Below, one piece after another: positions 1 through 34,303 of a DNA stretch of 34,303 nucleotides. Every line of letters begins with the position of its first letter. Position 1 is the first letter of the stretch. Made by a program: the position numbers and the translations under genes. The notes below the pieces were generated by a model. That model ran no database searches and was not told the DNA's origin. It saw nothing but the letters and a program-made list of their open reading frames with translations. The DNA lies in IMG/VR virus record IMGVR_UViG_3300005647_000015; one strand, written 5' to 3'. This DNA comes from a virus.

Positions 1-90
1 AATTCCTTAACTGCATTACCTTGCAATCCATCTACTGGGCTATCATCTTCAAGAATAGATAAACCTAGTGAAGATAAAATAGCTCTTCTC
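1..90. repeat. Terminal direct repeat, copy 1. It is identical to 34214..34303 and marks the closure overlap of a circular or circularly permuted genome.
   Basis: Compared base by base: nt 1-90 (aattccttaactgcatt...aatagctcttctc) equal nt 34214-34303, 90/90. The repeat lies inside one continuous minus-strand reading frame. Confidence 0.95.
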
Positions 91-6320: not shown

Positions 6321-6521
6321 CTACCCTTGATTATGAACTATAGCTTTATTAGCCCACATGGCCACTTCTTCAAGTTTAGTAATAGTTATAGATTTTTCTC
6401 TAGACTCTTTTAAAACTGTATTTATCAGTTCATATAATTCATTAGCTTTGTTTCTAACTAATTGGAGCTCTACAATACTTTTTTCATTTGGTTGGTTATA
6501 TGTAAATCTTTTATCAATCAT
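6321..6521 (-). CDS. Small conserved phage protein with a C-terminal '..TKLEE..MWA.KAI' helix. Function unknown.
   Basis: 66 aa: ..QPNEKSIVELQLVRNKANELYELINTVLKESREKSITITKLEEVAMWANKAIVHNQG. The same pattern is seen in 32725..32973. Confidence 0.6.
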   Translation of the reverse strand: MIDKRFTYNQPNEKSIVELQLVRNKANELYELINTVLKESREKSITITKLEEVAMWANKAIVHNQG

Positions 6522-9175: not shown

Positions 9176-9613
9176 TCATTCTCCTTTTTTGTTGTGTTTT
9201 CTACGATCATAAAGTTCAATATGACCTAAATCATTAAAATCTTTCTTTCCGCCTCTTTTGCCGTCCCTATCCCAATCGTAGCCCCATCTCAATTTTATTC
9301 CCATTTGGTGACCTACTCCCAAAATAATACCAGCCACTATGCAGTATTGCTGAAGATCTTGATAGTTGTTTGGGTATGGCTGAAAATCAAACGCATCTGA
9401 ATAAGGTTTACCTTTATACGTAGTGTTATGATTAGAGTTTGGATATTGCAATTTAGAAGCGCCGCTTCTAAAATATCTATCTTGTTCTTCTTTATCTCTA
9501 AAGCCACTGACTATAGAAAAATCTACTATTTTAATTGCCTTCCTAGCAATTTTAATTAGTTTAGGATTGCATGTTATGAGCTTCTTTTCAGAAGTTGGAC
9601 CAAATAAATACAT
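9176..9613 (-). CDS. Endolysin: peptidase M15 family, L-alanyl-D-glutamate endopeptidase of the phage T5 Lys type.
   Basis: From memory, it is colinear with T5 endolysin: FGPTSEKKL..NPKL.KIARKA...DFSIVSGFR..EEQ...S.H....YSDAFDF.PY...GIKLRWGYDW....DLGHIELY. It has the Zn ligands of the VanY/M15 fold (H..D...H) and no signal peptide. Confidence 0.9.
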   Translation of the reverse strand: MYLFGPTSEKKLITCNPKLIKIARKAIKIVDFSIVSGFRDKEEQDRYFRSGASKLQYPNSNHNTTYKGKPYSDAFDFQPYPNNYQDLQQYCIVAGIILGVGHQMGIKLRWGYDWDRDGKRGGKKDFNDLGHIELYDRRKHNKKGE

Positions 9614-9994
9614 TTAAAAGGCTGTCCCCATTACAAAACCTAAAGCCAATGCCGAACCTATCCCTATAAGAACATGCTTTTTCTGAATCCCATTTTTTTT
9701 TATTGGATCTTCTGGTATGATTTCTGTTTCTGAAATTAGTTTATTTTTTTGATCTATTAAATTTTTAACGTCTAGTTTTAGTTTTGACTTAGAGGCCTTA
9801 CATTCATTTAAGTTATTAATGTTTTTAATGCCATCCCTTAATGATTGATCTATCTGCATATTTTGTTCCTTTGTATAACATCTAGCTTCAAAAGGTATTA
9901 TAGTTGGTGTAGCTTCCACTATAATAGGTTCAAGTTTTTGAAGCTGTGCAAATGCACAATTAAAAAATAATACTATTAAAATTATCGTTTTCAT
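9614..9994 (-). CDS. Secreted protein with a C-terminal membrane anchor; the architecture resembles a unimolecular spanin.
   Basis: N-terminal signal MKTIILIVLFFNCAFAQ, with an AFA-Q signal-peptidase-I-like site and Cys13 in a weak lipobox context. A helical middle region is followed by an extreme C-terminal transmembrane segment, HVLIGIGSALALGFVMGTAF. Its stop abuts the endolysin ATG. Confidence 0.45.
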   Translation of the reverse strand: MKTIILIVLFFNCAFAQLQKLEPIIVEATPTIIPFEARCYTKEQNMQIDQSLRDGIKNINNLNECKASKSKLKLDVKNLIDQKNKLISETEIIPEDPIKKNGIQKKHVLIGIGSALALGFVMGTAF

Positions 9995-10002
9995 ACCTTC
10001 CT

Positions 10003-10305
10003 TTATTTGCTGCTAATAAGTGCGCTTTGTAATGAACGCATATCAGCTCTAACTTCCCTTCTAAACTCTTCTTCTCTTTTGTCTCTTATAATCCTTAATT
10101 CCTCTTGCCTTTTATCTCTTGCTTGAAGTTCTGTTTTAATGGTTTCTCTAATTCGTTCTTCAAGAGCGCTTGACACTGTTTGTATTGGACTTGATACGCC
10201 TTCGCTTGATTTAAGAGTTTGATACCCATCCAAAGCGAGCTTAAAACCAAAACCAACAAGAGTAGTGGCAACAAATAAAATAGCTTTGATTTGGCTATTT
10301 CCCAT
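10003..10305 (-). CDS. Holin candidate (single N-terminal transmembrane segment plus a highly charged C-terminal helix).
   Basis: MGNSQIKAILFVATTLVGFGFKLAL, then ..EERIRETIKTELQARDKRQEELRIIRDKREEEFRREVR. GGAG lies 11 nt upstream of the ATG. It is upstream of the u-spanin-like and endolysin genes. Confidence 0.45.
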   Translation of the reverse strand: MGNSQIKAILFVATTLVGFGFKLALDGYQTLKSSEGVSSPIQTVSSALEERIRETIKTELQARDKRQEELRIIRDKREEEFRREVRADMRSLQSALISSK

Positions 10306-10367
10306 TTAGGTGGTAGCTCCACAATTACACTGTCTAAATTTATTTCTTTTAAATCTTCCCATTTCAT
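10095..10367 (-). CDS. Alternative-frame membrane ORF that overlaps the holin candidate by 211 nt. Its reality is uncertain.
   Basis: 90 aa with a central transmembrane segment, LFYLLPLLLLVLVLSSLWMGI. Its ATG directly follows the stop of the kinase-like gene (TAAATG). Confidence 0.3.
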   Translation of the reverse strand: MKWEDLKEINLDSVIVELPPKWEIAKSKLFYLLPLLLLVLVLSSLWMGIKLLNQAKAYQVQYKQCQALLKNELEKPLKQNFKQEIKGKRN

Positions 10368-11045
10368 TTAAAGCCCTAAAGAATAAAAAAAAGTACTGCC
10401 TTTTTTATTATTTGATTCTACCCACACTGAGCCGTTATATGATTCTATAATGTTTTTAACTAAACTTAAGCCTATTCCTTGGCCTTCTGTGTTGCCATAA
10501 ACTTTTGTAAAAAGTCCAAAGATGCTACCAAACATTTGTTTTGGAATGCCTATGCCGTTGTCACTAATTGAAATTATAATATCTGATCCAAAACATTCAG
10601 CACCTACATGAATTAAAGGTGCGGTTCCTTTTTTTGCGTATTTGATAGCGTTATCTATAAGGTGTTCAAAAACTGTAACTTGATCATTATGGCTCATTCT
10701 TAATTGTGGTAAATCGTAGAAGGCTATTACTGCATTTGTTTGCTCTATTTTTTCTTTTAAATTAGTGCAAGCAACTTTAATGCACTTAACAGCAGGCACT
10801 AAAGGTTCTGGATAGTGAATCCCATTATAGTTATTCACTTTCTTTTCCAACGGCTCTATGACCTGACCAGTGGCAAACTGGGCAGATGACTTCTCTTCTT
10901 TTTTGTCCGAAATATAGGAATGTTTTTTTTGTAAGGTCGTCGATTTTAGATTTACACGCTTGAGGAGCTTCGATGCTATTACTTCTGAGATTGAAGATAT
11001 TGGGGCATTCAATTGGTACAGCCCTGCTTGTGTTGGTTCTATCAT
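10368..11045 (-). CDS. Histidine-kinase-like protein: a degenerate DHp (H-box His replaced by Tyr) plus an intact HATPase_c catalytic domain. It has no sensor, transmembrane or receiver domain.
   Basis: N box HLIDNAIKYAKKG; G1 box ISDNGIGIP; F box IFGLFTK; G2 box GQGIGLSLVKNIIESYNGSVWVESNNKKGSTFFYSL. The N-terminal GLYQLNAPISSISEVIASKLL aligns to the H-box consensus aSHDLqePLrxIxxfxxlL, placing Y10 at the His position. An AAGGA RBS is present, and an in-frame TAG lies two codons upstream of the ATG. Confidence 0.8.
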   Translation of the reverse strand: MIEPTQAGLYQLNAPISSISEVIASKLLKRVNLKSTTLQKKHSYISDKKEEKSSAQFATGQVIEPLEKKVNNYNGIHYPEPLVPAVKCIKVACTNLKEKIEQTNAVIAFYDLPQLRMSHNDQVTVFEHLIDNAIKYAKKGTAPLIHVGAECFGSDIIISISDNGIGIPKQMFGSIFGLFTKVYGNTEGQGIGLSLVKNIIESYNGSVWVESNNKKGSTFFYSLGL

Positions 11046-11131
11046 ATTCTATTCCTTTTCCTTCCCTACAAAGTATCTCCCATTCATAAAGGGTGTACAT
11101 TGCGCGGTTTATTGTATTTTTCATTATATTT

Positions 11132-13876
11132 TTACGATGCACGCCCTTCTAAATAGTCCATTTTAGTTTGTGAACGATTTGCTATATTTAGTGATTTAGC
11201 GCCTGCTAATGGTTCTGCTTCACTCTCTTGCGAAGCTGATAAACTTGTGAGCATCTTTAAGAAGCCCACACTCATTGTGACATCTGTTGGAGTTTTAAAC
11301 AAAATTCCAAGCTGTATTTTTTTTTGATATGAAATTTTTTCTTTAAGCTCTGCCATGCTTTCAAGCATTTGAGTTTGCATTTCTTGATATAGGTTAGGAT
11401 ATACAACTTCAATAGCTTCTATATATTCATCTGTAAGCTCATTAGTTTGAGCTTTTTCTAAAACACTTAAAGGATCTTGAACCGCTTCTACATATCTTTC
11501 AAAACTAGCTACTTGTTCATCTGAAGGAGTATAATCATCTTGATCTGCAAAAAGTGAATCATGAACAGGCGGATCTGGTAGCTTTTGCGCTAGAAAATTA
11601 ACGGCTGTAGAAACTTGCTGCGTTGCATGTGAAGCCATTTTAGGTGCATATTGCTGCATGCTTTTCATATTAGCGCCCATCAACTCAACTAATAAACTTG
11701 GATTATTTACGAGCTCTTTAATTTCTTTTGCACGTTCTTTGTAAGCATCTTTTCTATTTTCAGCAGTGTTTTTCTTATATGGTGAAAATGACATATCCAT
11801 GAGCATAGATGTTGAAACGTTTCTAAAAGCTTGCGTTTTTGCGCCTGTTGTTAGCAAGTCACTAACATACCCTTTTACTGTTGAGCGCTGCTGTTTTATG
11901 ATCTTTTCTAAAGATGCATACTTATTAACAAGCTTACCAATTGAACTACTTCCACCCTCTATAGCTTGCCTTTTTACTCCAGTTCCAACTTTCCCAAGCA
12001 TGCCCATTACTGTACCAAACATAGTATCCTGAATGGCTCCGCTTGGATTTCTTAAACTTTGCCTTGCAGCGCGTCCCATGTTTTCAAAAGCTGATCCAAC
12101 TTCTCTGCCTACAGCTTTATCTGGAAATAAGCGTGAAAGTACTTTTCTATCGTTATAAATCTCTTGAAATTTAATTCCTGTTAAGTCTTGAAAGTCTCTT
12201 ACTGTCTTTTCCCATGTAGATTTATTTTTAGCAGCACCCTTTAAAGCACCTGTATTAAAGCCATTGTAATTGCGCTCCATTGTTTTAATAAATCTTTGAT
12301 CAAACCAGTTTGTACCGCCTCTGCCTTCAAGTTTTTGCAATCCTTTGAATGTTTGAACCATCTTAGAATAAGGTTGCATAATTTCTGTTAATCCATCAAC
12401 TCGATCTCTCAACAAAGTGTTTAAATCTACATCAACTAAATCTTTTACTATTTCATCTTTTAAAGATATTTCATTTTTTTGATAAGCGTTCTTTATATCT
12501 TTTCTTAAACCTTGAATGAATTTTCTAATACGTGGACCGTCCCATGTTTTGTCTATAATCTTGCCTTCTATATCTCTAGGGATGTTGCCGTCTCTATAGC
12601 TCTGAAGCCTTTTCACTGCTGATTGTGTGCTTTCTGTACTAGGTTCATTTTTAAGATTATCTATTTTATTTACTATTAAATCATCTAGTTCTTTTGTGGT
12701 CATTTGAGCATTTGAACGCTCTATAGCTTCAACGGCTGCCGTCTCACTTTGATTCATCATAGTTTGAAGCTGCTCTACACCATCTTCATACATGGCTGGT
12801 AATTCATCCATAGAAGGTTGTTCTTTTATGCGTTGCTTATTGTTTCTATAATATCTTAATTCATCTGGTGTAACGTCTGCTAATTTTTTAGCTGTTACTT
12901 TTTCTTCTGTAGTAAAAGGCCTCACATCATCTGTTAATCTTTTAATGTCGTCTAGTTCATCTTCAATAGGTTTAAAGATCTTATTAGCTGCTTTGCTTCC
13001 AAGTTTGTTAAAAGCAACACCACCCACTCCAACAGCACCACCTATAGCACCACCTAAAAGCGTTCCAACTCCTACAGTGCTTAATACAGTTTCAGCATTT
13101 AGTTCAACATTTCCTAAAGCTTCTTCACTGATAAGATGCCCTGCACCATAAAACGCACCTTCAACAGCAGAACCAGCCGCTTTTGGCAGTGCTTTTTCTG
13201 CTATCAATCTAGCAACACTTTTAGCTGCTCCTTTTGTAGCGCCTGACACTGCGAGCTTTTCAGCAATCATTTTAGTTACAGCTTGAGCTGCTTTTTTTTC
13301 TGCTCCTATTCCTAGCTTTGCAACAGCGCGAGGCAATACACCTGCTGCTCTAGTTGCTTTGGCTGCAAGTGATGCACCTTGAGCGGCTTTAGCACCTGCG
13401 ACGGCTGGCGCGGCCGTTCCACCACTTAATAAAAGCGGAGCCGCAACACCTGCTACTTCACCTGCTATAGCAGCGCCTTTATTTCGCTTTTGATTTTCTC
13501 TTAAAAACTCTTCACTAACACCTGCTTTTTTTGCAAGTTGATCTGATAAGCCAAAACTCAATCCACGCGCTACACCTAAAGCTCCAGCAGAAACTGGCGA
13601 ATTGCCATATTCATCTTTTAAAAACTCTTCTTTGGTTTTTTCATAGCTTTCAAGATTAAAGCCTTTAGCTAAAAGAGCTTCTAGATCCTTGCCTTGAGTA
13701 GTTCCCCTTTTTCCATTTGGTGAAACTAAATCTATTTCAGCATCTGGATCTATGCCATAATTTCCAGTCTGGAAAAGCTGTCCAACTGTTTCACGTGGAA
13801 CATCTTCCCATGCGCTCGACGCTTTATTAAACATCGATACAGTTTTAGATCCTTTGAATTTTGTTTCATTTTCCAT
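11132..13876 (-). CDS. Large internal virion/ejection protein with Ala/Gly-rich membrane-like segments.
   Basis: 914 aa. Residues about 135-290 are A/G/V-rich hydrophobic helices (GAAIAGEVAGVAAPLLLSGGTAAPAVAGAKAAQG..VGVGTLLGGAIGGAVGVGGVAF). It is the last large gene of the virion block, in the position of podovirus core/ejection proteins. Confidence 0.45.
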   Translation of the reverse strand: MENETKFKGSKTVSMFNKASSAWEDVPRETVGQLFQTGNYGIDPDAEIDLVSPNGKRGTTQGKDLEALLAKGFNLESYEKTKEEFLKDEYGNSPVSAGALGVARGLSFGLSDQLAKKAGVSEEFLRENQKRNKGAAIAGEVAGVAAPLLLSGGTAAPAVAGAKAAQGASLAAKATRAAGVLPRAVAKLGIGAEKKAAQAVTKMIAEKLAVSGATKGAAKSVARLIAEKALPKAAGSAVEGAFYGAGHLISEEALGNVELNAETVLSTVGVGTLLGGAIGGAVGVGGVAFNKLGSKAANKIFKPIEDELDDIKRLTDDVRPFTTEEKVTAKKLADVTPDELRYYRNNKQRIKEQPSMDELPAMYEDGVEQLQTMMNQSETAAVEAIERSNAQMTTKELDDLIVNKIDNLKNEPSTESTQSAVKRLQSYRDGNIPRDIEGKIIDKTWDGPRIRKFIQGLRKDIKNAYQKNEISLKDEIVKDLVDVDLNTLLRDRVDGLTEIMQPYSKMVQTFKGLQKLEGRGGTNWFDQRFIKTMERNYNGFNTGALKGAAKNKSTWEKTVRDFQDLTGIKFQEIYNDRKVLSRLFPDKAVGREVGSAFENMGRAARQSLRNPSGAIQDTMFGTVMGMLGKVGTGVKRQAIEGGSSSIGKLVNKYASLEKIIKQQRSTVKGYVSDLLTTGAKTQAFRNVSTSMLMDMSFSPYKKNTAENRKDAYKERAKEIKELVNNPSLLVELMGANMKSMQQYAPKMASHATQQVSTAVNFLAQKLPDPPVHDSLFADQDDYTPSDEQVASFERYVEAVQDPLSVLEKAQTNELTDEYIEAIEVVYPNLYQEMQTQMLESMAELKEKISYQKKIQLGILFKTPTDVTMSVGFLKMLTSLSASQESEAEPLAGAKSLNIANRSQTKMDYLEGRAS

Positions 13877-15357
13877 TATTTAGGCTTAAACCTCTGGTCA
13901 TCTTCTGGGAACCCTTGCCATCCAATGATGTTGTTTTTATAGAAACTGTCTGCTTTTGTATTTAAAGTCTTTTGGAATGTTTCATAACTTTTTAAAACAA
14001 AACCAACATCAGAACCATCTGGAATAGCTTTTTTGATCATTTTTAAATCATCACCTGACAATGCACCCAATTCAAAAACAGCTTTGTTAGCTAAAGTTTG
14101 AAGCGTTGCACTAAGGTTGTTTAGTTCTGTTTTTGCCTCACTAGGTAATTTTTTAGCTCCATATTCTTTGCGTAATTCTATCAATCTATTAAGTGTGCTG
14201 TTCATCACTTCATGATCAGTGCTAAATGATCTGGCTTTATTTGCGCTTTCTTTACTATAAGCCATTCCTTTTCCAGCTATATACCTGTCTATCCCTTGTG
14301 CTGATTTATTAGCTTGAGCTTTTGCAAACTGATCTAGCTTAATATTAGATTCTGCTTTTTTCTGGTCTAGCGCTGCTATGCTTTGTTTTGCGGCTGCTTG
14401 AGCTTCTTTACTAGAAGCGTTTGATGTCATTTCTACCAAACGCATTTTAGTTTGATCTATTAAGCTTGATTTGGCTGCTTCCATTGCTGCTGATTCATTG
14501 CCAAATTTACTCATAGCCATCTGGTAAAGGTTTTGCTGTGTTCCAGCTTCTCTTCCTTTTTGTGCAATGTTATCTCTTTGCGCTTGAATGTCTTGATCAA
14601 TTTGGCTCATGATAATATCAAGTGCTGCATTTCCATTCATTCGGCCGCCTGCTGCTTGATTTATAGCTGTTCCCATTGTTCCAGCCATAATAGATAATGC
14701 GGCTCCAACTTTTCCGAATGAGCTTTTATTTTTCCAATACTTCCTAGGATCAACACCTTGCGAAGCTTCAGCGCTTAAAGCTTCTATATTGGTTTTGTAC
14801 TTTTCAAACTCTTGATTATAAGCTTGCGTCATTTCTTTTCTGTTTGCGTCTATGCTTTCCATCTGTTGACGGCTTTCTTCATAAACTTTTCCAGTAGCTA
14901 ACTCTTTTTCTGCTCTTGCTTCACCTATTTCATTAATGGCCTTTTTTTCATCATCATAAGCTTTATTTAAACCAAAACTATTAACAGGCTTAGGCTTATT
15001 CATATTAAACCCACCTTGATTAGTGGGTTGCACACCTGAAGCAAAAACAGGGGCCTTTTTTTCAGGTACATCTGGAGCAATTTCAACTGAATTAGGCTGA
15101 TTCATCATGCTTTCTTGAGGTGTAGGTGTAGGAACAGGCGTAGGCATTGGAACTGGTCTACTGCTTGGCATGGGTGGAGCTATAGGTGTGGGCATTGCTG
15201 ATTGCATAGGCATAGGAGGCGCTGGAGGTACAGGCGCTGGCATTGGTGTTTGAGGCACTCCTCCACCATATTGATTTAAAGTGTTTGGTGAAAGTGCATT
15301 TTCCGCAACTTGGATAGTTTGCCCTGTTTGAGGGTTTGTTATCGTTTTAAGTGGCAT
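13876..15357 (-). CDS. Internal virion protein with a Met/Pro-rich N-terminus and a helical body.
   Basis: 493 aa. Residues 36-82 read PMPAPVPPAPPMPMQSAMPTPIAPPMPSSRPVPMPTPVPTPTP. The remainder is Ala/Gln/Lys-rich and helical. Start and stop overlap the neighbouring genes (ATGA-type junctions). Confidence 0.4.
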   Translation of the reverse strand: MPLKTITNPQTGQTIQVAENALSPNTLNQYGGGVPQTPMPAPVPPAPPMPMQSAMPTPIAPPMPSSRPVPMPTPVPTPTPQESMMNQPNSVEIAPDVPEKKAPVFASGVQPTNQGGFNMNKPKPVNSFGLNKAYDDEKKAINEIGEARAEKELATGKVYEESRQQMESIDANRKEMTQAYNQEFEKYKTNIEALSAEASQGVDPRKYWKNKSSFGKVGAALSIMAGTMGTAINQAAGGRMNGNAALDIIMSQIDQDIQAQRDNIAQKGREAGTQQNLYQMAMSKFGNESAAMEAAKSSLIDQTKMRLVEMTSNASSKEAQAAAKQSIAALDQKKAESNIKLDQFAKAQANKSAQGIDRYIAGKGMAYSKESANKARSFSTDHEVMNSTLNRLIELRKEYGAKKLPSEAKTELNNLSATLQTLANKAVFELGALSGDDLKMIKKAIPDGSDVGFVLKSYETFQKTLNTKADSFYKNNIIGWQGFPEDDQRFKPK

Positions 15358-16667
15358 TATTTTTTCCCCTCTAAATCTTTAAGCCTACTATGCAAAGCCT
15401 TAGTAGCAGCTAACACCGCTCCAAAACCCTTAATAGTATCAACTGTTTTTATGCCCTCTTGCGTCTCATTAACTAAGCTTTTACCTACGTTAGATTTTTC
15501 AAGATCTTGAGCCATAATGCCATAAACATCATTTTGAGTGTCACCATAATCTTCTTTAGTGTACTTATATTTATAAGCGTCTAGCTTATCTAGAAAGTCA
15601 TTTACATCTGAATCTGCTCTTTCAATGTCTGTTTTTACATTTTCATCTGAAAACATAGCACCAACTGCTCCAACTCCAGAAATAACGCTACCTACAATTT
15701 GACCTGTTTTATCTGGCTGAGCCATTTCAGCAGCCGTCAAGCCTGCGTTTGTTTGTTGCGCTGTTTGATGTTGTTGCGCTCTTAATTGCTCAAGTTGCAT
15801 ACTAGCTTGCATTTGCGCTTGATCCAGTGTCATGCCTTGACTCATAAAATATTGCGTCATTTGGTCATTCATTTGCCCTTGTTGCATTTGTGCTTGCAAG
15901 TTTACTGTATCCATTTGATTTCTATTCTGTAGCATTTGTAATTCAGCATTTTGATTAGATAATTCAGCTTGATTTGCATAGCCTTGATTAGTTTGAGCTA
16001 TCCCAATATCTTGACTTCTTACGTTGCCATATTGATCACCTAAAGCCATCAAGTTTTGATTAGCTTGCTGGGCTTCTGCTGCTCTTGCCACTCCAGCCTG
16101 TTGCATAAAGTCAGAACTAGCTTGATTCATTGAATTACCTGCTTGCCTTGAAGCGGCTGCTACATTTCCACCTCTTGCGCTTGACTGTATAGCTAAAGCA
16201 TTGTTTAAGGCTTGATCTCTTTGCATGCCTATTGCCATTTCACCAACTGAAACTTGATTACCAGCCGCTTGATTTTGATACTGACCTTGTAAGCTTTGAA
16301 TCATTTGCATTTGCTGTGCTCTTGCTTGATCTGATACGGCTTGACTTTGGTCTATAGCTTGAACTGTTGGAGTGCTGCCTTCATAGGGCATGACTTGCGG
16401 AGCCATCCTATTATCAACTTGATCAAGCCTATTAGTTAGCTGTTCTTGCCATTTGGCACTGTTAGGATCTTGAAAAGCCTCTTCTTTAAAGTCATATGGC
16501 CTTGCTTCAACACTGTATCCATCTTCCTTTAAGCGCCAGTCGTTTATATCTCTTACTGATCTAGAAGATCTTCTTTCCCCACTGTCTTTGTATCGGTCTG
16601 CATCTTGTGAAACATCTACAGTAGTTACTTTATAAGGATTGTCATTTGTTGTTGTATTATTAACCAT
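15357..16667 (-). CDS. Tail fibre/spike-type protein: a Q/N-rich low-complexity shaft plus a C-terminal peptidase-S74 intramolecular chaperone domain.
   Basis: The C-terminus FSDENVKTDIERADSDVNDFLDKLDAYKYKYTKEDYGDTQNDVYGIMAQDLEK...VDTIKGFGAVLAATKALHSRLKDLE matches the S74 pattern 'SD...K.nI......l..l..l....Y.Y........G.iAQ.l....P..v........vdy..l...l..a.q.l...i..Le'. The middle roughly 200 aa is dominated by Q, N, A and M. Confidence 0.8.
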   Translation of the reverse strand: MVNNTTTNDNPYKVTTVDVSQDADRYKDSGERRSSRSVRDINDWRLKEDGYSVEARPYDFKEEAFQDPNSAKWQEQLTNRLDQVDNRMAPQVMPYEGSTPTVQAIDQSQAVSDQARAQQMQMIQSLQGQYQNQAAGNQVSVGEMAIGMQRDQALNNALAIQSSARGGNVAAASRQAGNSMNQASSDFMQQAGVARAAEAQQANQNLMALGDQYGNVRSQDIGIAQTNQGYANQAELSNQNAELQMLQNRNQMDTVNLQAQMQQGQMNDQMTQYFMSQGMTLDQAQMQASMQLEQLRAQQHQTAQQTNAGLTAAEMAQPDKTGQIVGSVISGVGAVGAMFSDENVKTDIERADSDVNDFLDKLDAYKYKYTKEDYGDTQNDVYGIMAQDLEKSNVGKSLVNETQEGIKTVDTIKGFGAVLAATKALHSRLKDLEGKK

Positions 16668-20179: not shown

Positions 20180-21136
20180 TTAATAATACTCCTCAATCCA
20201 ACAAAATCCATCGCCACCATCGCCGCCTGATCTAGCTGGGTTACTGTTAGAGTAGTTTATACCACCTAGCCCCCCAACTCCTACTGAGCTTACGTTAGCG
20301 CCATTTCCTGAATTGCTTCTATATCTTTTGCCGCAATTAAAATGATTTCCACCACTAATGCTAGAAGGGTATGGCACGTTAGAGCTTACTCTACTAAGTC
20401 CAACCTCTTGGCCATCAAAGTTATAATCACCACCTATTCCTGTACCGCCCTGACCTCCAAAAATCAAAGATGGTCCGACAGTGTTGGCTCCACCAAAACC
20501 GTGCTTACCTCCAGTGGCTGAAAAATAAGAGCCAAAACTTGTTGTTCCTCCATCTGTTCCATTATTATTACCAGCCGATCCACCAATTCCACCAGCTCCA
20601 ATAGTTACAGTTTCAGAAGCTCCTAATTCACTAACATCAAACCACCTAATTGACACACCAGATCCTCCTCCATGTCCTCCGATAGATTTTCCTGTTCCTG
20701 TACTGGCTGCACCACCAGCACCGCCTCCAGCTCCTGATAACGTGGTCCTTATTTTTCTAACACCTGCACTTGGAATATATATTCCTGAACTTGCAAAAGT
20801 AACTAACTGTTTAAAATCACCATTAGAAAAACCTGAAAATATTCCATTGATTGCTTGAACATCACCAGCGCTGGCTATTAGATTTCCAGTGTTTGAAGTT
20901 ATGTTTCCTTCTGTTGTAAATGAAGTATTTAAAGCTGCTAGTGTTGTGTTTATAGAATCTATTGAAGCTTCTATAGAAGTTAAATCAACTCCTTCTAATT
21001 CTGTTGAAAGAGTCGTAAGATTATTATTAATTGTGGTAAGTGCGTTGCCTGTATCTGAGAAAAGCTCTCTAACATACTCTTGAAACTTATCTAAGTTGAT
21101 GTCGTTGGACTGTAACCTTTTAAGCTCTTTGATCAT
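20180..21136 (-). CDS. Glycine-rich virion protein (N-terminal coiled coil plus GGxGG repeat domain), of the minor tail/fibre class.
   Basis: 318 aa. N-terminus LTTINNNLTTLSTELEGVDLTSIEASIDSINTTLAALNTSF, then SGAGGGAGGAASTGTGKSIGGHGGGSGV..GAGGIGGSAGNNNGTDGGTTSFG..GGQGGTGIGGDY..GVGGLGGINY..SGGDGGDGFCWIEEYY. This resembles the glycine-rich domains of phage minor tail proteins. Confidence 0.5.
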   Translation of the reverse strand: MIKELKRLQSNDINLDKFQEYVRELFSDTGNALTTINNNLTTLSTELEGVDLTSIEASIDSINTTLAALNTSFTTEGNITSNTGNLIASAGDVQAINGIFSGFSNGDFKQLVTFASSGIYIPSAGVRKIRTTLSGAGGGAGGAASTGTGKSIGGHGGGSGVSIRWFDVSELGASETVTIGAGGIGGSAGNNNGTDGGTTSFGSYFSATGGKHGFGGANTVGPSLIFGGQGGTGIGGDYNFDGQEVGLSRVSSNVPYPSSISGGNHFNCGKRYRSNSGNGANVSSVGVGGLGGINYSNSNPARSGGDGGDGFCWIEEYY

Positions 21137-21838
21137 CTAATACATATCCGAATAATCATCAAATCCATCACCTGCATAAATGTCTGTAGCTTGGTTTTCT
21201 TCTCCTATATCTCTATTTTCTGCCATTGACTCTACATGCCGTTCAACTTTTTGCATGTCTCTTTCAATTTCTGAAACATCCGACTCTTCTTTTATTAAAG
21301 CTTTTCTAGCTGCGTAATTTACTATGTAACTTTCCCAATGGTTCTGCGCTTGAAAAGTATCAGTATCATCTACCATCTTTGGCATACTTGGAACGTACCA
21401 AACTTCTATTTGATAAGTGCCAATAGGGGATGGTCTTAGCCATAACTTATCCCCTCTTAGTCTGTATCTAATACCTCTATAAGTGCTATCACTCCATGCA
21501 AAAGGTGTTTGCCCTCTTGAGCGCTCATTGAAATTAAACTTTCTTAAAGGCTTAGCATTGTTACCTGAAAATAAAATGCTCACTCCCACAAGTTTATAAA
21601 AATCATCAATGCCTACTGACTCAAAATCATACGCATCTTGACCACTCACAGTGCTAAAGGTTACAGGATCAGCTACAAAATAATCATTACCATATGCACC
21701 AACTTGCATATCATAAAGCATAGCAGCGCCTTCATTTATCCATGAATCCCAATTTTCATCATTGATAAAGTTTGAATTGGTCATGTCTGCAAGCTCTTTA
21801 GCTCGCTTTCTTATTTCCAATAAAGACACTTTAGCCAT
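21137..21838 (-). CDS. Head-to-tail adaptor / tail tubular A-like structural protein.
   Basis: 233 aa. The N-terminal pattern LLEIRKRAKELADMTNSNFINDENWDSWINEGAAMLYD is typical of podovirus adaptor/connector-proximal proteins. The call rests mainly on position. Confidence 0.35.
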   Translation of the reverse strand: MAKVSLLEIRKRAKELADMTNSNFINDENWDSWINEGAAMLYDMQVGAYGNDYFVADPVTFSTVSGQDAYDFESVGIDDFYKLVGVSILFSGNNAKPLRKFNFNERSRGQTPFAWSDSTYRGIRYRLRGDKLWLRPSPIGTYQIEVWYVPSMPKMVDDTDTFQAQNHWESYIVNYAARKALIKEESDVSEIERDMQKVERHVESMAENRDIGEENQATDIYAGDGFDDYSDMY

Positions 21839-33988: not shown

Positions 33989-34303
33989 ATTGGCAACACC
34001 TCTTGAACTATATCTTTATGCGCTTCTTTAGCTTGTTCTAAAATCTCTTCACACTCTGCTGCATTTAACTTCATTAAAGTTTTTCCAGAACATTCTTTTA
34101 CAAATCTATTAAAGGTTTCTATATCACCTTCAAAAGGTCCGTTTGTATCTACACAAAAATCAAAAAGCTTTTCACGCCATTCTTGAATTTCTGTTTCATC
34201 TGGAGTTTTAACTAATTCCTTAACTGCATTACCTTGCAATCCATCTACTGGGCTATCATCTTCAAGAATAGATAAACCTAGTGAAGATAAAATAGCTCTT
34301 CTC
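33985..34303 (-). CDS. Single-strand annealing protein, C-terminal part. This is the same gene as 1..533, read through the circular junction.
   Basis: The track ORF 33985..34239 begins at an internal TTG. The frame stays open up to the window end, and nt 34214..34303 duplicate nt 1..90, so ..VDGLQGNAVKE|LVKTPDETEIQEW.. is continuous. Confidence 0.6.
   Translation of the reverse strand, partial: RRAILSSLGLSILEDDSPVDGLQGNAVKELVKTPDETEIQEWREKLFDFCVDTNGPFEGDIETFNRFVKECSGKTLMKLNAAECEEILEQAKEAHKDIVQEVLPI
34214..34303. repeat. Terminal direct repeat, copy 2 (identical to 1..90).
   Basis: 90/90 identity to the window start. Confidence 0.95.

What the first reader, a model, noticed from the sequence alone, without database searches (positions are those of the whole stretch)
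10368..11142. Phage-encoded, sensor-less histidine-kinase-like protein with Tyr at the phospho-acceptor His position
The 225-aa ORF has a complete and apparently functional ATP-binding domain: N box HLIDNAIKY, G1 DNGIGI, F box FGLFTK, and G2 GQGIGLSL followed by GSVWVESNNKKGSTFFYSL. The preceding helix still aligns to the H-box: GLYQLNAPISSISEVIASKLL against the consensus aSHDLqePLRxI..f..lL. In that alignment the phospho-acceptor His is Tyr10 and the neighbouring Asp is Gln. There is no sensor, transmembrane or PAS domain, and no response regulator anywhere in the genome. An in-frame TAG two codons upstream and an AAGGA RBS show this is a bona fide short gene rather than a truncated call. It sits after an 86-nt gap at the end of the virion gene block and before the lysis genes, so it should be expressed late. 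Two-component kinases are rare in small lytic phages. A DHp+CA-only protein could heterodimerise with a host kinase and poison or rewire it. It could also act as a phosphatase or decoy for a host response regulator, or use Tyr as an acceptor.
Basis: partly seen in the sequence, partly recalled or inferred. Interest (0 to 1): 0.8.

Follow-up and report, generated by a model that had tools for sequence, protein, structure and literature searches.

The report
Phage histidine-kinase remnant lacking its histidine
A small uncultured phage carries a one-of-a-kind 225-residue gene made of an intact ATP-binding half of a bacterial sensor kinase joined to a scrambled leader with no phosphorylatable histidine, so it cannot work as a normal sensor kinase, and the claimed tyrosine at the histidine position does not hold up.

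Summary
The ORF is real: window 10368-11045, minus strand, 225 aa. It has an AAGGA ribosome-binding site, an in-frame TAG two codons upstream and an 86-nt gap after the preceding gene. It lies in a closed 34.2-kb phage genome, between the virion genes and the lysis genes.

Residues 81-225 are a canonical histidine-kinase catalytic (CA) domain: Pfam HATPase_c E=2.8e-21, all N/G1/F/G2 residues present, AlphaFold pLDDT 94-98. There is no sensor domain and no response regulator in the genome.

The H-box claim is not supported.
- Residues 1-80 match no DHp family in Pfam.
- A 137-member profile of the closest kinases leaves them unaligned.
- hhalign gives 1.4% probability.
- Different methods place the acceptor histidine opposite Tyr10, Ser25 or Gly60. 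Ser25 is preferred by the closest family.
- No register supplies a histidine.
- This segment also has weak codon-usage signal, low model confidence and no amphipathicity.

The protein is a singleton among 1.84 billion cluster representatives, and related phages lack it.

Best reading: an accessory gene derived from the transmitter half of a kinase, in which only the ATP-binding module is maintained. If active, it acts in trans on a host partner. A functionless passenger gene is a serious rival. Interest is moderate to low.

The parts
10368..11045 (-). Complete 225-aa ORF, stop codon included: a histidine-kinase-derived protein.
   Evidence: ORF list. The identical gene was called on four other contigs. 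Codon-usage log-likelihood is +0.34 per codon, like other phage genes.
10371..10805 (-). Residues 81-225: canonical histidine-kinase catalytic/ATP-binding (CA, HATPase_c) domain.
   Evidence: Pfam PF02518 E=2.8e-21. PDB sequence hits to WalK, HK853 and VicK cover the CA domain only. AlphaFold pLDDT is 94-98. Closest-family HMM scores 157.7 bits over residues 79-223. Codon LLR is +0.53 per codon.
10638..10664 (-). N box HLIDNAIKY (residues 128-136; N132, K135).
   Evidence: N132 is invariant, and A133 and K135 are at least 90% conserved, in the 93-sequence alignment.
10545..10562 (-). G1 box DNGIGI (residues 162-167).
   Evidence: D162, G164 and G166 are at least 90% conserved. The DNA was read directly.
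10503..10520 (-). F box FGLFTK (residues 176-181).
   Evidence: F176 is at least 90% conserved and F179 is invariant in A1. The DNA was read directly.
10461..10484 (-). G2 box GQGIGLSL (residues 188-195). The ATP lid before it is 2 residues shorter than in the closest family.
   Evidence: G188, G190, G192 and L193 are conserved. The lid gap is seen.
10806..11045 (-). Residues 1-80: degenerate leader in the position of the DHp domain, with no recognisable H-box and no acceptor histidine.
   Evidence: No DHp family in Pfam at E<=10. Unaligned by the closest-family HMM. hhalign probability 1.4%. pLDDT 46-67. Codon LLR +0.10 per codon, below 99% of control windows. Helices are not amphipathic.
11016..11018 (-).
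   Evidence: The broad HMM gives this register at 3.7 bits, and 43 of 2000 shuffles score as well. It is chosen in 28% of 248 pairwise alignments.
10971..10973 (-). Ser25: the alternative acceptor-equivalent residue, preferred by the closest family.
   Evidence: MAFFT. phmmer against P0146 and P0102. It is chosen in 35% of 248 alignments, and 51 vs 23 within the family with 114-residue His-to-N-box spacing.
11046..11131 (-). 86-nt intergenic gap containing AAGGA (11053-11057) and the in-frame TAG (11049-11051).
   Evidence: Sequence read directly. The scan reports no promoter or terminator site in the gap; a TATAAT read by eye just after the upstream stop has only a 3/6 -35 match. RNA fold z-score is -0.44.
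11132..13876 (-). Upstream 914-aa gene, the last gene of the virion block. It is conserved in related phages.
   Evidence: tblastn matches to relatives. Homologues of 861 and 794 aa are present in L045 and L047.
10003..10305 (-). Downstream 100-aa protein with an N-terminal membrane helix and a charged coiled tail; a candidate lysis-cassette member.
   Evidence: Translation. Codon LLR is +0.48 per codon in the overlap, against -0.34 for the competing 90-aa ORF. It has no family hits.
9176..9613 (-). Endolysin.
   Evidence: phrog_465 endolysin, E=4.7e-34.

Best explanation
The gene is an accessory ('moron'-type) gene of an uncultured 34.2-kb podovirus-like phage. It descends from the C-terminal transmitter half of a HisKA-class bacterial sensor kinase of the 'ASHDLQEPLR' clade.

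Only the ATP-binding catalytic domain (residues 81-225) has been maintained. The segment that once was the dimerisation/phosphotransfer (DHp) domain (residues 1-80) has drifted beyond recognition and holds no acceptor histidine. The protein therefore cannot be a conventional autophosphorylating kinase feeding a response regulator.

Shown here: gene integrity, an intact ATP-binding motif set, loss of the H-box, uniqueness, and absence from relatives.

Inferred:
- It is co-transcribed late with the virion and lysis genes.
- It binds ATP.
- If it is active, it acts in trans on a host-encoded partner. It could supply kinase or ATP-lid activity to a host kinase or phosphotransfer domain, as one half of a split kinase does. 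Alternatively it could bind and perturb a host two-component protein, as pseudo-kinases do.
For: Gene integrity:
- The ORF is complete with a ribosome-binding site.
- Four assemblies are 100% identical.

Catalytic domain:
- HATPase_c E=2.8e-21.
- All conserved ATP-binding positions are kept although the nearest relative is at most 49% identical.
- The model is very confident, pLDDT 94-98.
- Foldseek's top hits are transmitter cores of HK853, WalK, a bacteriophytochrome kinase and DivL.
- Codon usage of the CA part matches the phage's core genes at +0.53 per codon. The leader scores +0.10, below 99% of control windows. This asymmetry points to domain-specific constraint.

Degenerate leader:
- Residual but non-significant kinase-like signal sits at the right distance from the N box. 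Two registers are each chosen in 28-35% of alignments, against at most 4% for any position after shuffling. This fits descent from a DHp domain.
- No histidine appears in any register.

Context:
- No response regulator is encoded in the genome.
- The gene is absent at the syntenic site of relatives with 57-59% MCP identity.
- It is a singleton among 1.84 billion representatives.

Precedents for trans action:
- CheA4 lacks the acceptor domain and phosphorylates CheA3 (PMC3591291).
- RetS acts on GacS by direct kinase-kinase contact (PMC8498467).
- DivL has no histidine, lacks kinase activity and works by binding DivK~P (PMC4211667).
Against: - There are no orthologues, so purifying selection cannot be measured. 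Intact motifs could reflect a recent capture from an unsampled host.
- The leader shows no amphipathic helices and only low-confidence helices. Single-sequence folding was uninformative. A stable DHp-like dimer or heterodimer interface is therefore doubtful, and an untethered CA domain would have low affinity for a foreign DHp.
- The host and any partner are unknown.
- No promoter, expression or biochemical evidence exists.
Confidence: 0.45

Rival explanations
1. Functionless passenger. A fragment of a host kinase gene was captured by illegitimate recombination and is being eroded. The open frame and intact CA motifs reflect recency rather than selection.
For: - It is a singleton with no orthologue in 1.84 billion representatives or 185,579 species genomes.
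- It is absent from all related phages examined.
- The leader is degenerate by profile, structural and codon-usage measures.
- Kinase genes starting at the H-box do turn up at the edge of phage records: Bacteroides phage p00 has a 221-aa protein starting MSHEIRTPL about 50 bp from the record end, in the end region that also holds the transposase gene.
Against: - The 225 codons contain no stop in a 35% GC genome.
- A good ribosome-binding site precedes the start.
- The nearest known kinase is at most 49% identical, yet every ATP-binding residue is kept. That is unexpected for neutral drift over such a distance.
- Codon usage in the CA part is as phage-like as in core genes.
- The genome is compact and tightly packed.
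Confidence: 0.3
2. Hydroxyl-directed protein kinase. The GHKL domain phosphorylates Ser, Thr or Tyr, either on itself (Tyr10 or Ser25) or on a host protein. This would resemble the anti-sigma kinases SpoIIAB/RsbW or the mitochondrial PDK/BCK kinases. It is the first reader's 'Tyr as acceptor' idea.
For: Both candidate acceptor-equivalent residues carry hydroxyl groups. The ATP-binding site is intact. GHKL-fold Ser kinases exist (established knowledge, not tested here).
Against: - There is no match to HATPase_c_2, the anti-sigma kinase type; only PF02518 and PF14501 match.
- No STAS or anti-anti-sigma partner is on record in the genome.
- The register is undefined, so neither residue can be said to face the ATP site.
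- DivL, the one well-studied kinase with Tyr at this site, lacks kinase activity (PMC4211667).
Confidence: 0.1
3. Conventional histidine kinase that uses another histidine (H42 or H77) and phosphorylates a host response regulator.
For: Two histidines lie in the leader. H42 aligns with the non-acceptor 'RRH/RRY' position of the closest family.
Against: - H42 to N132 is 90 residues and H77 to N132 is 55. The 248 kinase units compared have spacings of 111-123, mostly 114-119.
- The sequence around H42 (KKHSYISD) lacks the acidic +1 residue and the +5 proline.
- No DHp-type family (HisKA or any related model) is detected by Pfam.
- H42 lies in the predicted loop 36-43, and H77 lies in the linker before the CA domain.
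Confidence: 0.03
4. An ATP- or nucleotide-binding protein with a role unrelated to two-component signalling, for example nucleotide sequestration, counter-defence, or an assembly or lysis-timing factor.
For: - The gene sits next to the lysis cassette.
- The genome carries an Acb2/Tad1-family counter-defence gene.
- There are weak CA-only matches to a candidate defence-system component, PDC-M43B, at 1e-6.
Against: No specific evidence supports it. The CA domain is an ordinary kinase-type domain. The PADLOC hits are generic GHKL similarity.
Confidence: 0.12

Closest known systems
HisKA-class sensor histidine kinases of the 'ASHDLQEPLR' clade (bacteriophytochrome-type and PAS-linked kinases; e.g. 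P0002, P0003, P0146; PDB 8f71 RpBphP2 kinase domain, HK853, WalK)
   Same: The CA domain shares up to 49% identity (37-49% among the best hits). All N, G1, F and G2 residues are kept, including the family-specific 'FEHLIDNAIK' N-box context. The predicted fold is the same.
   Different: There is no recognisable HisKA/DHp domain, no acceptor histidine, no input domain and no partner regulator. The protein is 225 aa and is encoded by a phage.
DivL of Caulobacter crescentus (pseudo-histidine kinase, Tyr550 in place of His; PDB 4q20)
   Same: It is a kinase-fold protein without the acceptor histidine. Precedent shows such proteins act by binding rather than by phosphotransfer (PMC4211667). It is a structural match in Foldseek.
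   Different: DivL keeps an otherwise conserved H-box and all other boxes, has PAS domains, dimerises through a normal DHp domain and is conserved across alpha-proteobacteria. Here the whole H-box region is unrecognisable, and Tyr10 is only one of three weak registers. It is not an orthologue: the sequence match is CA-only, E=4.7e-8.
Split kinases such as Rhodobacter sphaeroides CheA4/CheA3
   Same: This is a kinase-domain protein that lacks its own acceptor and so can only phosphorylate a partner in trans (PMC3591291).
   Different: CheA4 is a CheA-class protein with P3-P5 domains and a known partner encoded in the same organism. Here no partner is known, and the class is HisKA-type.
Kinase genes already found in viruses: AgrC homologue of Clostridium difficile phage phiCDHM1, PHROG families 857/10912/20458, BFVD and IMG/VR kinases
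   Same: All are virus-borne genes with a kinase CA domain (PMC3901668).
   Different: Of the 27 IMG/VR kinase ORFs inspected, most are 227-1246 aa and sit on much larger contigs. Those of the same clade keep an intact SHDLQEPLR H-box (L054, L056, L058). The phiCDHM1 gene belongs to an agr cassette. The gene here is the shortest, has no histidine and lies in a 34-kb genome.
RetS-GacS type kinase-kinase interference
   Same: It is a model for how a kinase-like protein could perturb a host kinase without phosphotransfer to a regulator (PMC8498467).
   Different: RetS uses a well-formed DHp domain to engage GacS. The leader here shows no evidence of a competent DHp interface.

Membership tests
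GHKL ATPase superfamily, histidine-kinase CA domain (Pfam HATPase_c PF02518) | Profile match above the curated threshold | tested here: met
   76.5 bits against a cut-off of 26.4, E=2.8e-21, residues 124-221.
GHKL ATPase superfamily, histidine-kinase CA domain (Pfam HATPase_c PF02518) | N, G1, F and G2 nucleotide-binding motifs present | tested here: met
   N132, K135, D162, G164, G166, F176, F179, G188, G190, G192 and L193 are all conserved.
GHKL ATPase superfamily, histidine-kinase CA domain (Pfam HATPase_c PF02518) | ATP binding or hydrolysis | not testable with these tools
   This requires purified protein.
HisKA-class two-component sensor histidine kinase | Recognisable DHp/HisKA domain N-terminal to the CA domain | tested here: not met
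   No HisKA or any other DHp family at E<=10. The closest-family HMM leaves residues 1-78 unaligned. hhalign probability is 1.4%. A broad HMM scores 3.7 bits, and 43 of 2000 shuffles score as well.
HisKA-class two-component sensor histidine kinase | Conserved phospho-acceptor histidine in the H-box, about 111-123 residues before the N-box Asn | tested here: not met
   The residues at the candidate positions are Tyr10, Ser25 or Gly60. The only leader histidines, H42 and H77, lie 90 and 55 residues from N132.
HisKA-class two-component sensor histidine kinase | Input (sensor, TM, PAS, HAMP) domain | tested here: not met
   There are only 80 residues before the CA domain and no domain hit. This feature is usual but not obligatory for the family.
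HisKA-class two-component sensor histidine kinase | Cognate response regulator encoded nearby | tested here: not met
   No PF00072 hit is on record for any called gene across the whole genome.
DivL-type pseudo-histidine kinase | Tyr replacing His within an otherwise conserved H-box | tested here: inconclusive
   Tyr10 is one of three weak registers, and the surrounding H-box is not conserved. The closest family prefers Ser25, 51 vs 23.
DivL-type pseudo-histidine kinase | PAS domains plus a competent DHp dimer that binds a phosphorylated regulator | tested here: not met
   No PAS domain is present. The leader has low confidence and is not amphipathic. Binding itself is not testable here.
Anti-sigma-factor Ser kinases (SpoIIAB/RsbW, Pfam HATPase_c_2) | Match to PF13581 and a STAS-domain partner | tested here: not met
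   Only PF02518 and PF14501 are reported. No STAS hit is on record in the genome.
Split kinase (CheA4-like kinase half) | Kinase-domain protein without an acceptor, plus a separate acceptor-bearing partner | tested here: inconclusive
   The first half is met: intact CA domain, no histidine. No partner is encoded by the phage, and the host is unknown.
Phage accessory gene ('moron') | Present in one lineage, absent at the syntenic site of relatives, and not part of a core module | tested here: met
   Relatives L045 and L047 have unrelated fibre-like genes after the 914-aa homologue. No orthologue was found anywhere.
Phage accessory gene ('moron') | Own promoter and terminator, or deviant base composition | tested here: not met
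   The scan reports no promoter or terminator site in the gap; a TATAAT read by eye there has only a 3/6 -35 match. GC is 35.3% and GC3 is 29%, both within the genome's range.

The most novel reading that the evidence does not exclude
The phage makes, late in infection, a free-standing kinase ATP-binding module that has shed its own acceptor. It docks onto a host histidine kinase or phosphotransfer protein and phosphorylates it, or locks it, independently of the host's sensor. This would be a viral 'split-kinase half' that rewires a host two-component pathway.
Probability: 0.1. Interest if true: 0.75.

Novelty: new variant of a known kind. Interest (0 to 1): 0.3.

Why it matters
If the protein is active, it would be the first example of a small lytic phage using a minimal, histidine-less kinase catalytic module to interfere with bacterial two-component signalling. 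It would also offer a natural minimal CA-domain tool for studying phosphorylation in trans.

As the evidence stands, it is a single unconserved gene of unknown host. Its main value is as a caution. An intact ATP-binding domain next to a helix can be over-read as a 'DHp with Tyr at the His position', when the H-box register is in fact not determinable.

Tried and rejected
- Pfam, PHROGs, NCBIfam and PADLOC scans of the protein gave CA-domain hits only. Nothing matched residues 1-71.
- I tried to fix the H-box register with six methods: MAFFT, a broad HMM, the closest-family HMM with hmmalign, an ungapped PSSM with shuffles, 248 semi-global pairwise alignments with a shuffled control, and hhalign. 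They disagree (Tyr10, Ser25, Gly60) and none is significant.
- Single-sequence AlphaFold was uninformative, mean pLDDT 38.5.
- Searches for orthologues found only the protein itself. These covered a word-indexed search of 5.8 billion proteins, an exhaustive phmmer search of 1.84 billion representatives, cluster look-up, GTDB species genomes, INPHARED and IMG/VR.
- Searching for the 914-aa neighbour as a single protein in IMG/VR found nothing. An alignment of its N-termini was too divergent to give patterns. I reached the syntenic region by walking from capsid-protein relatives.
- Host inference failed. There are no tRNAs. The nearest cultured phages are only distant: Pelagibacter phages share about 29% identity over part of the terminase. 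The sample identifiers are not described in the searchable literature.
- Alternative starts at L12, L66, V70, V83 and M117 have no ribosome-binding site.
- The overlapping 90-aa ORF (10095-10367) and 103-aa ORF (10831-11142) were rejected as genes on codon usage.
- I rejected a fusion with the upstream 914-aa gene. The two are in different frames, and a TAG lies 2 codons upstream.

Full report
**1. What is in the sequence**

The ORF lies at window 10368-11045 on the minus strand and encodes 225 aa. The finding's upper coordinate, 11142, adds the intergenic gap and a spurious overlapping ORF.

I read the following directly from the DNA:
- The ATG is at 11043-11045.
- AAGGA lies 7 nt upstream, at 11053-11057.
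- An in-frame TAG is the second codon upstream, at 11049-11051.
- The preceding 914-aa gene ends at 11132, leaving an 86-nt gap.

The gap contains no terminator, and the consensus scan reports no promoter there. By eye there is a TATAAT just after the upstream stop, with only a 3/6 -35 match. The RNA has no unusual structure (z = -0.44). Other possible starts at L12, L66, V70, V83 and M117 lack a ribosome-binding site.

**2. Genome context**

All genes lie on the minus strand. The family hits are:

| Gene product | Evidence |
|---|---|
| Large terminase, portal/adaptor, major head protein, tail-fibre protein | PHROGs |
| Endolysin, 9176-9613 | PHROGs |
| DNA methyltransferase, exonuclease, HNH endonuclease | PHROGs |
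| SU10_MCP (faint), SU10_adaptor, Peptidase_S74, RusA, HTH_3 | precomputed Pfam |
| Acb2/Tad1 | precomputed Pfam |

The window has an exact 90-nt terminal repeat, so it is a closed genome of 34,213 bp. Three other assemblies are 100% identical. Precomputed Pfam hits for every called gene around the circle include no response-regulator receiver domain.

The gene sits between the last conserved virion-block gene (914 aa) and the lysis region. That region holds a 100-aa membrane protein, a 126-aa protein with a lipoprotein-like signal and a C-terminal membrane helix, and the endolysin. About half of the genes have Shine-Dalgarno motifs. There are no tRNAs. No cultured phage is close. The host is unknown.

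**3. The C-terminal domain is a canonical kinase CA domain**

- Pfam HATPase_c scores 76.5 bits against a cut-off of 26.4, over residues 124-221.
- phmmer against PDB sequences hits WalK/YycG, HK853, VicK and others, in the CA domain only.
- A 93-sequence alignment shows the phage protein keeps every invariant or at least 90% conserved column. These are N132, A133, K135, D162, G164, G166, F176, G188, G190, G192, L193, G205, S211, G216 and F219.
- The ATP lid is two residues shorter than in the closest family.
- AlphaFold2 with this alignment gives pLDDT 94-98 for residues 81-225.
- Foldseek's best matches are the transmitter cores of HK853, WalK, ZraS, a bacteriophytochrome kinase and DivL.
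- The nearest relatives are at most 49% identical and match essentially only from residue about 80 onward.

**4. The N-terminal 80 residues are not a recognisable DHp domain, and the acceptor register cannot be determined**

- No DHp-type family appears in Pfam at E<=10.
The score is only 3.7 bits, and 43 of 2000 composition-preserving shuffles do as well.
- A tight HMM of 137 units from the closest family scores 157.7 bits on residues 79-223 and leaves residues 1-78 unaligned.
- Ungapped PSSM scores are negative for every register. The Tyr10 and Ser25 registers are matched or beaten by 49% and 59% of shuffle maxima.
- MAFFT and phmmer pairwise alignments with the two homologues that align furthest toward the N-terminus place the histidine opposite Ser25. 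For P0102 the alignment is AEVMAHHLQEPLRRV against SEVIASKL---LKRV. For P0146 it is ungapped.
- Across 248 kinase units aligned semi-globally, the histidine falls on Ser25 in 35%, Tyr10 in 28% and a gap in 22%. Within the closest family it is 51 against 23. After shuffling residues 1-78, no position exceeds 4%. A faint kinase-like periodic signal therefore remains, in two incompatible registers.
- hhalign offers a third register, with the histidine opposite Gly60 and EPL matching residues 64-66, at 1.4% probability.
- None of these registers provides a histidine. The only leader histidines, H42 and H77, lie 90 and 55 residues from N132. The kinase units compared have spacings of 111-123, mostly 114-119.

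Three independent measures also mark this segment as degenerate:
- pLDDT is 46-67 for the predicted helices 6-35 and 44-72.
- The hydrophobic moment is no greater than in shuffles.
- The codon-usage log-likelihood is +0.10 per codon, against +0.53 for the CA part. Windows of 78 codons in the phage's long genes average +0.62 ± 0.20, and only 0.7% of them score this low.

**5. Distribution**

- The protein is the sole member of its cluster.
- It is the only full-length match among 1.84 billion representatives. The other 468,299 hits are ordinary kinases matched through the CA domain.
- GTDB species genomes contain no close relative.
- Phages sharing the structural module exist in IMG/VR, with 45-60% capsid-protein identity and conserved gene order.
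- Two of them were walked to the syntenic site, L045 (57% capsid identity) and L047 (57%). After the 914-aa homologue they carry a 116-119-aa protein and repeat-rich fibre-like genes, not a kinase.
- tblastn finds kinase-like sequence in only 12 of 50,697 phage records.
- Of the 27 IMG/VR kinase ORFs inspected, most are 227-1246 aa and mostly lie on large contigs. Those of the same clade keep an intact SHDLQEPLR motif.
- Viral kinases in BFVD are mostly 370-1186 aa.
- Bacteroides phage p00 has a 221-aa protein that starts exactly at an intact H-box (MSHEIRTPL). It lies about 50 bp from the end of the record, in the end region that also holds the transposase gene, so it may be flanking host DNA.

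**6. Interpretation**

The asymmetry is the main clue. One half of the gene is as well preserved as any kinase CA domain and uses codons like the phage's own genes. The other half has lost every defining feature of a DHp domain.

This fits descent from a kinase transmitter half, followed by constraint on ATP binding only. The protein cannot be a classical autophosphorylating kinase. The reading 'DHp+CA with Tyr at the acceptor site, like DivL' is not supported. DivL keeps a conserved H-box around Tyr550 and still lacks kinase activity (PMC4211667).

If the protein is active, it must act in trans. Two precedents apply:
- In split kinases, a kinase half without an acceptor phosphorylates a separate acceptor protein. 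CheA4 and CheA3 are the studied case (PMC3591291).
- Kinase-kinase interference occurs between RetS and GacS (PMC8498467).

Against a DHp-mediated heterodimer, the leader shows no sign of a competent helical bundle.

A functionless passenger gene remains a serious alternative, because there is no orthologue with which to measure selection. Counter-arguments are the open frame, the ribosome-binding site, the complete motif set at no more than 49% identity to anything known, and the compact genome.

**7. Verdict**

The gene, the CA domain, the absence of histidine, sensor and regulator, and the genomic position all hold. The H-box alignment and Tyr10 do not.

This is a new variant of known kinds: virus-borne kinase genes and histidine-less pseudo-kinases. 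It is unique so far and of moderate to low interest until a host, expression or an activity is shown.

Noticed in passing
window 6321-6521 (-): A 66-aa gene matches the Pfam Acb2/Tad1 hairpin domain (PF24729, E=4.1e-14, 53 bits against a cut-off of 27). This family is known (from memory, not checked here) as sponges for cyclic-nucleotide immune signals, anti-CBASS and anti-Thoeris. The phage therefore carries a recognisable counter-defence gene about 4 kb downstream of the kinase-like gene.
   Followed up: partly
window 1-90 and 34214-34303; window about 11609-11644: The window has an exact 90-nt terminal direct repeat, so the genome is a closed 34,213 bp. Three other assemblies of the same phage (JGI 3300009073, JGI 3300027509, ENA ERZ27241782) are 100% identical. 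All of them end at about 11609 and 11644, leaving a gap of about 34 nt inside the 914-aa gene. No repeat or hairpin explains this. It may simply reflect the same reads and the same assembler.
   Followed up: partly
window 10095-10367 (-) and 10003-10305 (-): Two membrane-helix ORFs overlap by 211 nt in different frames. The 90-aa ORF starts at the TAAATG junction with the kinase-like gene's stop codon. Its codon usage in the overlap is -0.34 per codon, against +0.48 for the 100-aa ORF, so only the 100-aa gene looks real.
   Followed up: yes
window 10831-11142 (-): A 103-aa ORF with a GTG start is open in another frame across the intergenic gap and codons 1-71 of the kinase-like gene. Its codon-usage signal is about zero. 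It probably reflects the weak constraint on this stretch rather than a gene.
   Followed up: yes
window 9614-9994 (-): This 126-aa protein has an N-terminal lipoprotein-like signal (MKTIILIVLFFNC...) and a C-terminal membrane helix. It lies between the 100-aa membrane protein and the endolysin. The layout resembles a unimolecular spanin, which would imply a Gram-negative host. It has no family hit.
   Followed up: no
L045 13008-14978 and L047 12889-14244: Related phages carry, just after the 914-aa homologue, fibre-like proteins of 451-656 aa. These are built of many repeats of a roughly 30-40-residue motif ('GKDFATQTTLAALLTELQ.KADL.ETQPVSA.SLPLPTGAATEATL'). An inserted endonuclease-like gene follows. 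The phage studied here has none of this at that site.
   Followed up: no
L056 3347-4465 (IMGVR_UViG_3300027509_000002, 99 kb): A much larger viral contig from the same JGI sample as this phage encodes a 372-aa kinase of the same clade with an intact SHDLQEPLR H-box. It is 32% identical to the CA domain here. It is not an obvious donor.
   Followed up: partly
L051 2767-3432 (Bacteroides phage p00, OY725603.1 42922-43587): A 221-aa 'hypothetical protein' begins exactly at an intact H-box (MSHEIRTPL). It ends about 50 bp from the end of the record, in the end region that also holds the transposase gene. It is probably a truncated host kinase in flanking DNA rather than a phage gene.
   Followed up: partly
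window 15357-16667 (-) and 20180-21838 (-): The structural module carries Peptidase_S74 (the intramolecular chaperone of tail spikes and fibres), Gly_rich_2 and SU10_adaptor domains, plus a faint SU10_MCP hit. This suggests an SU10-like podovirus architecture, although there is no close cultured relative.
   Followed up: no
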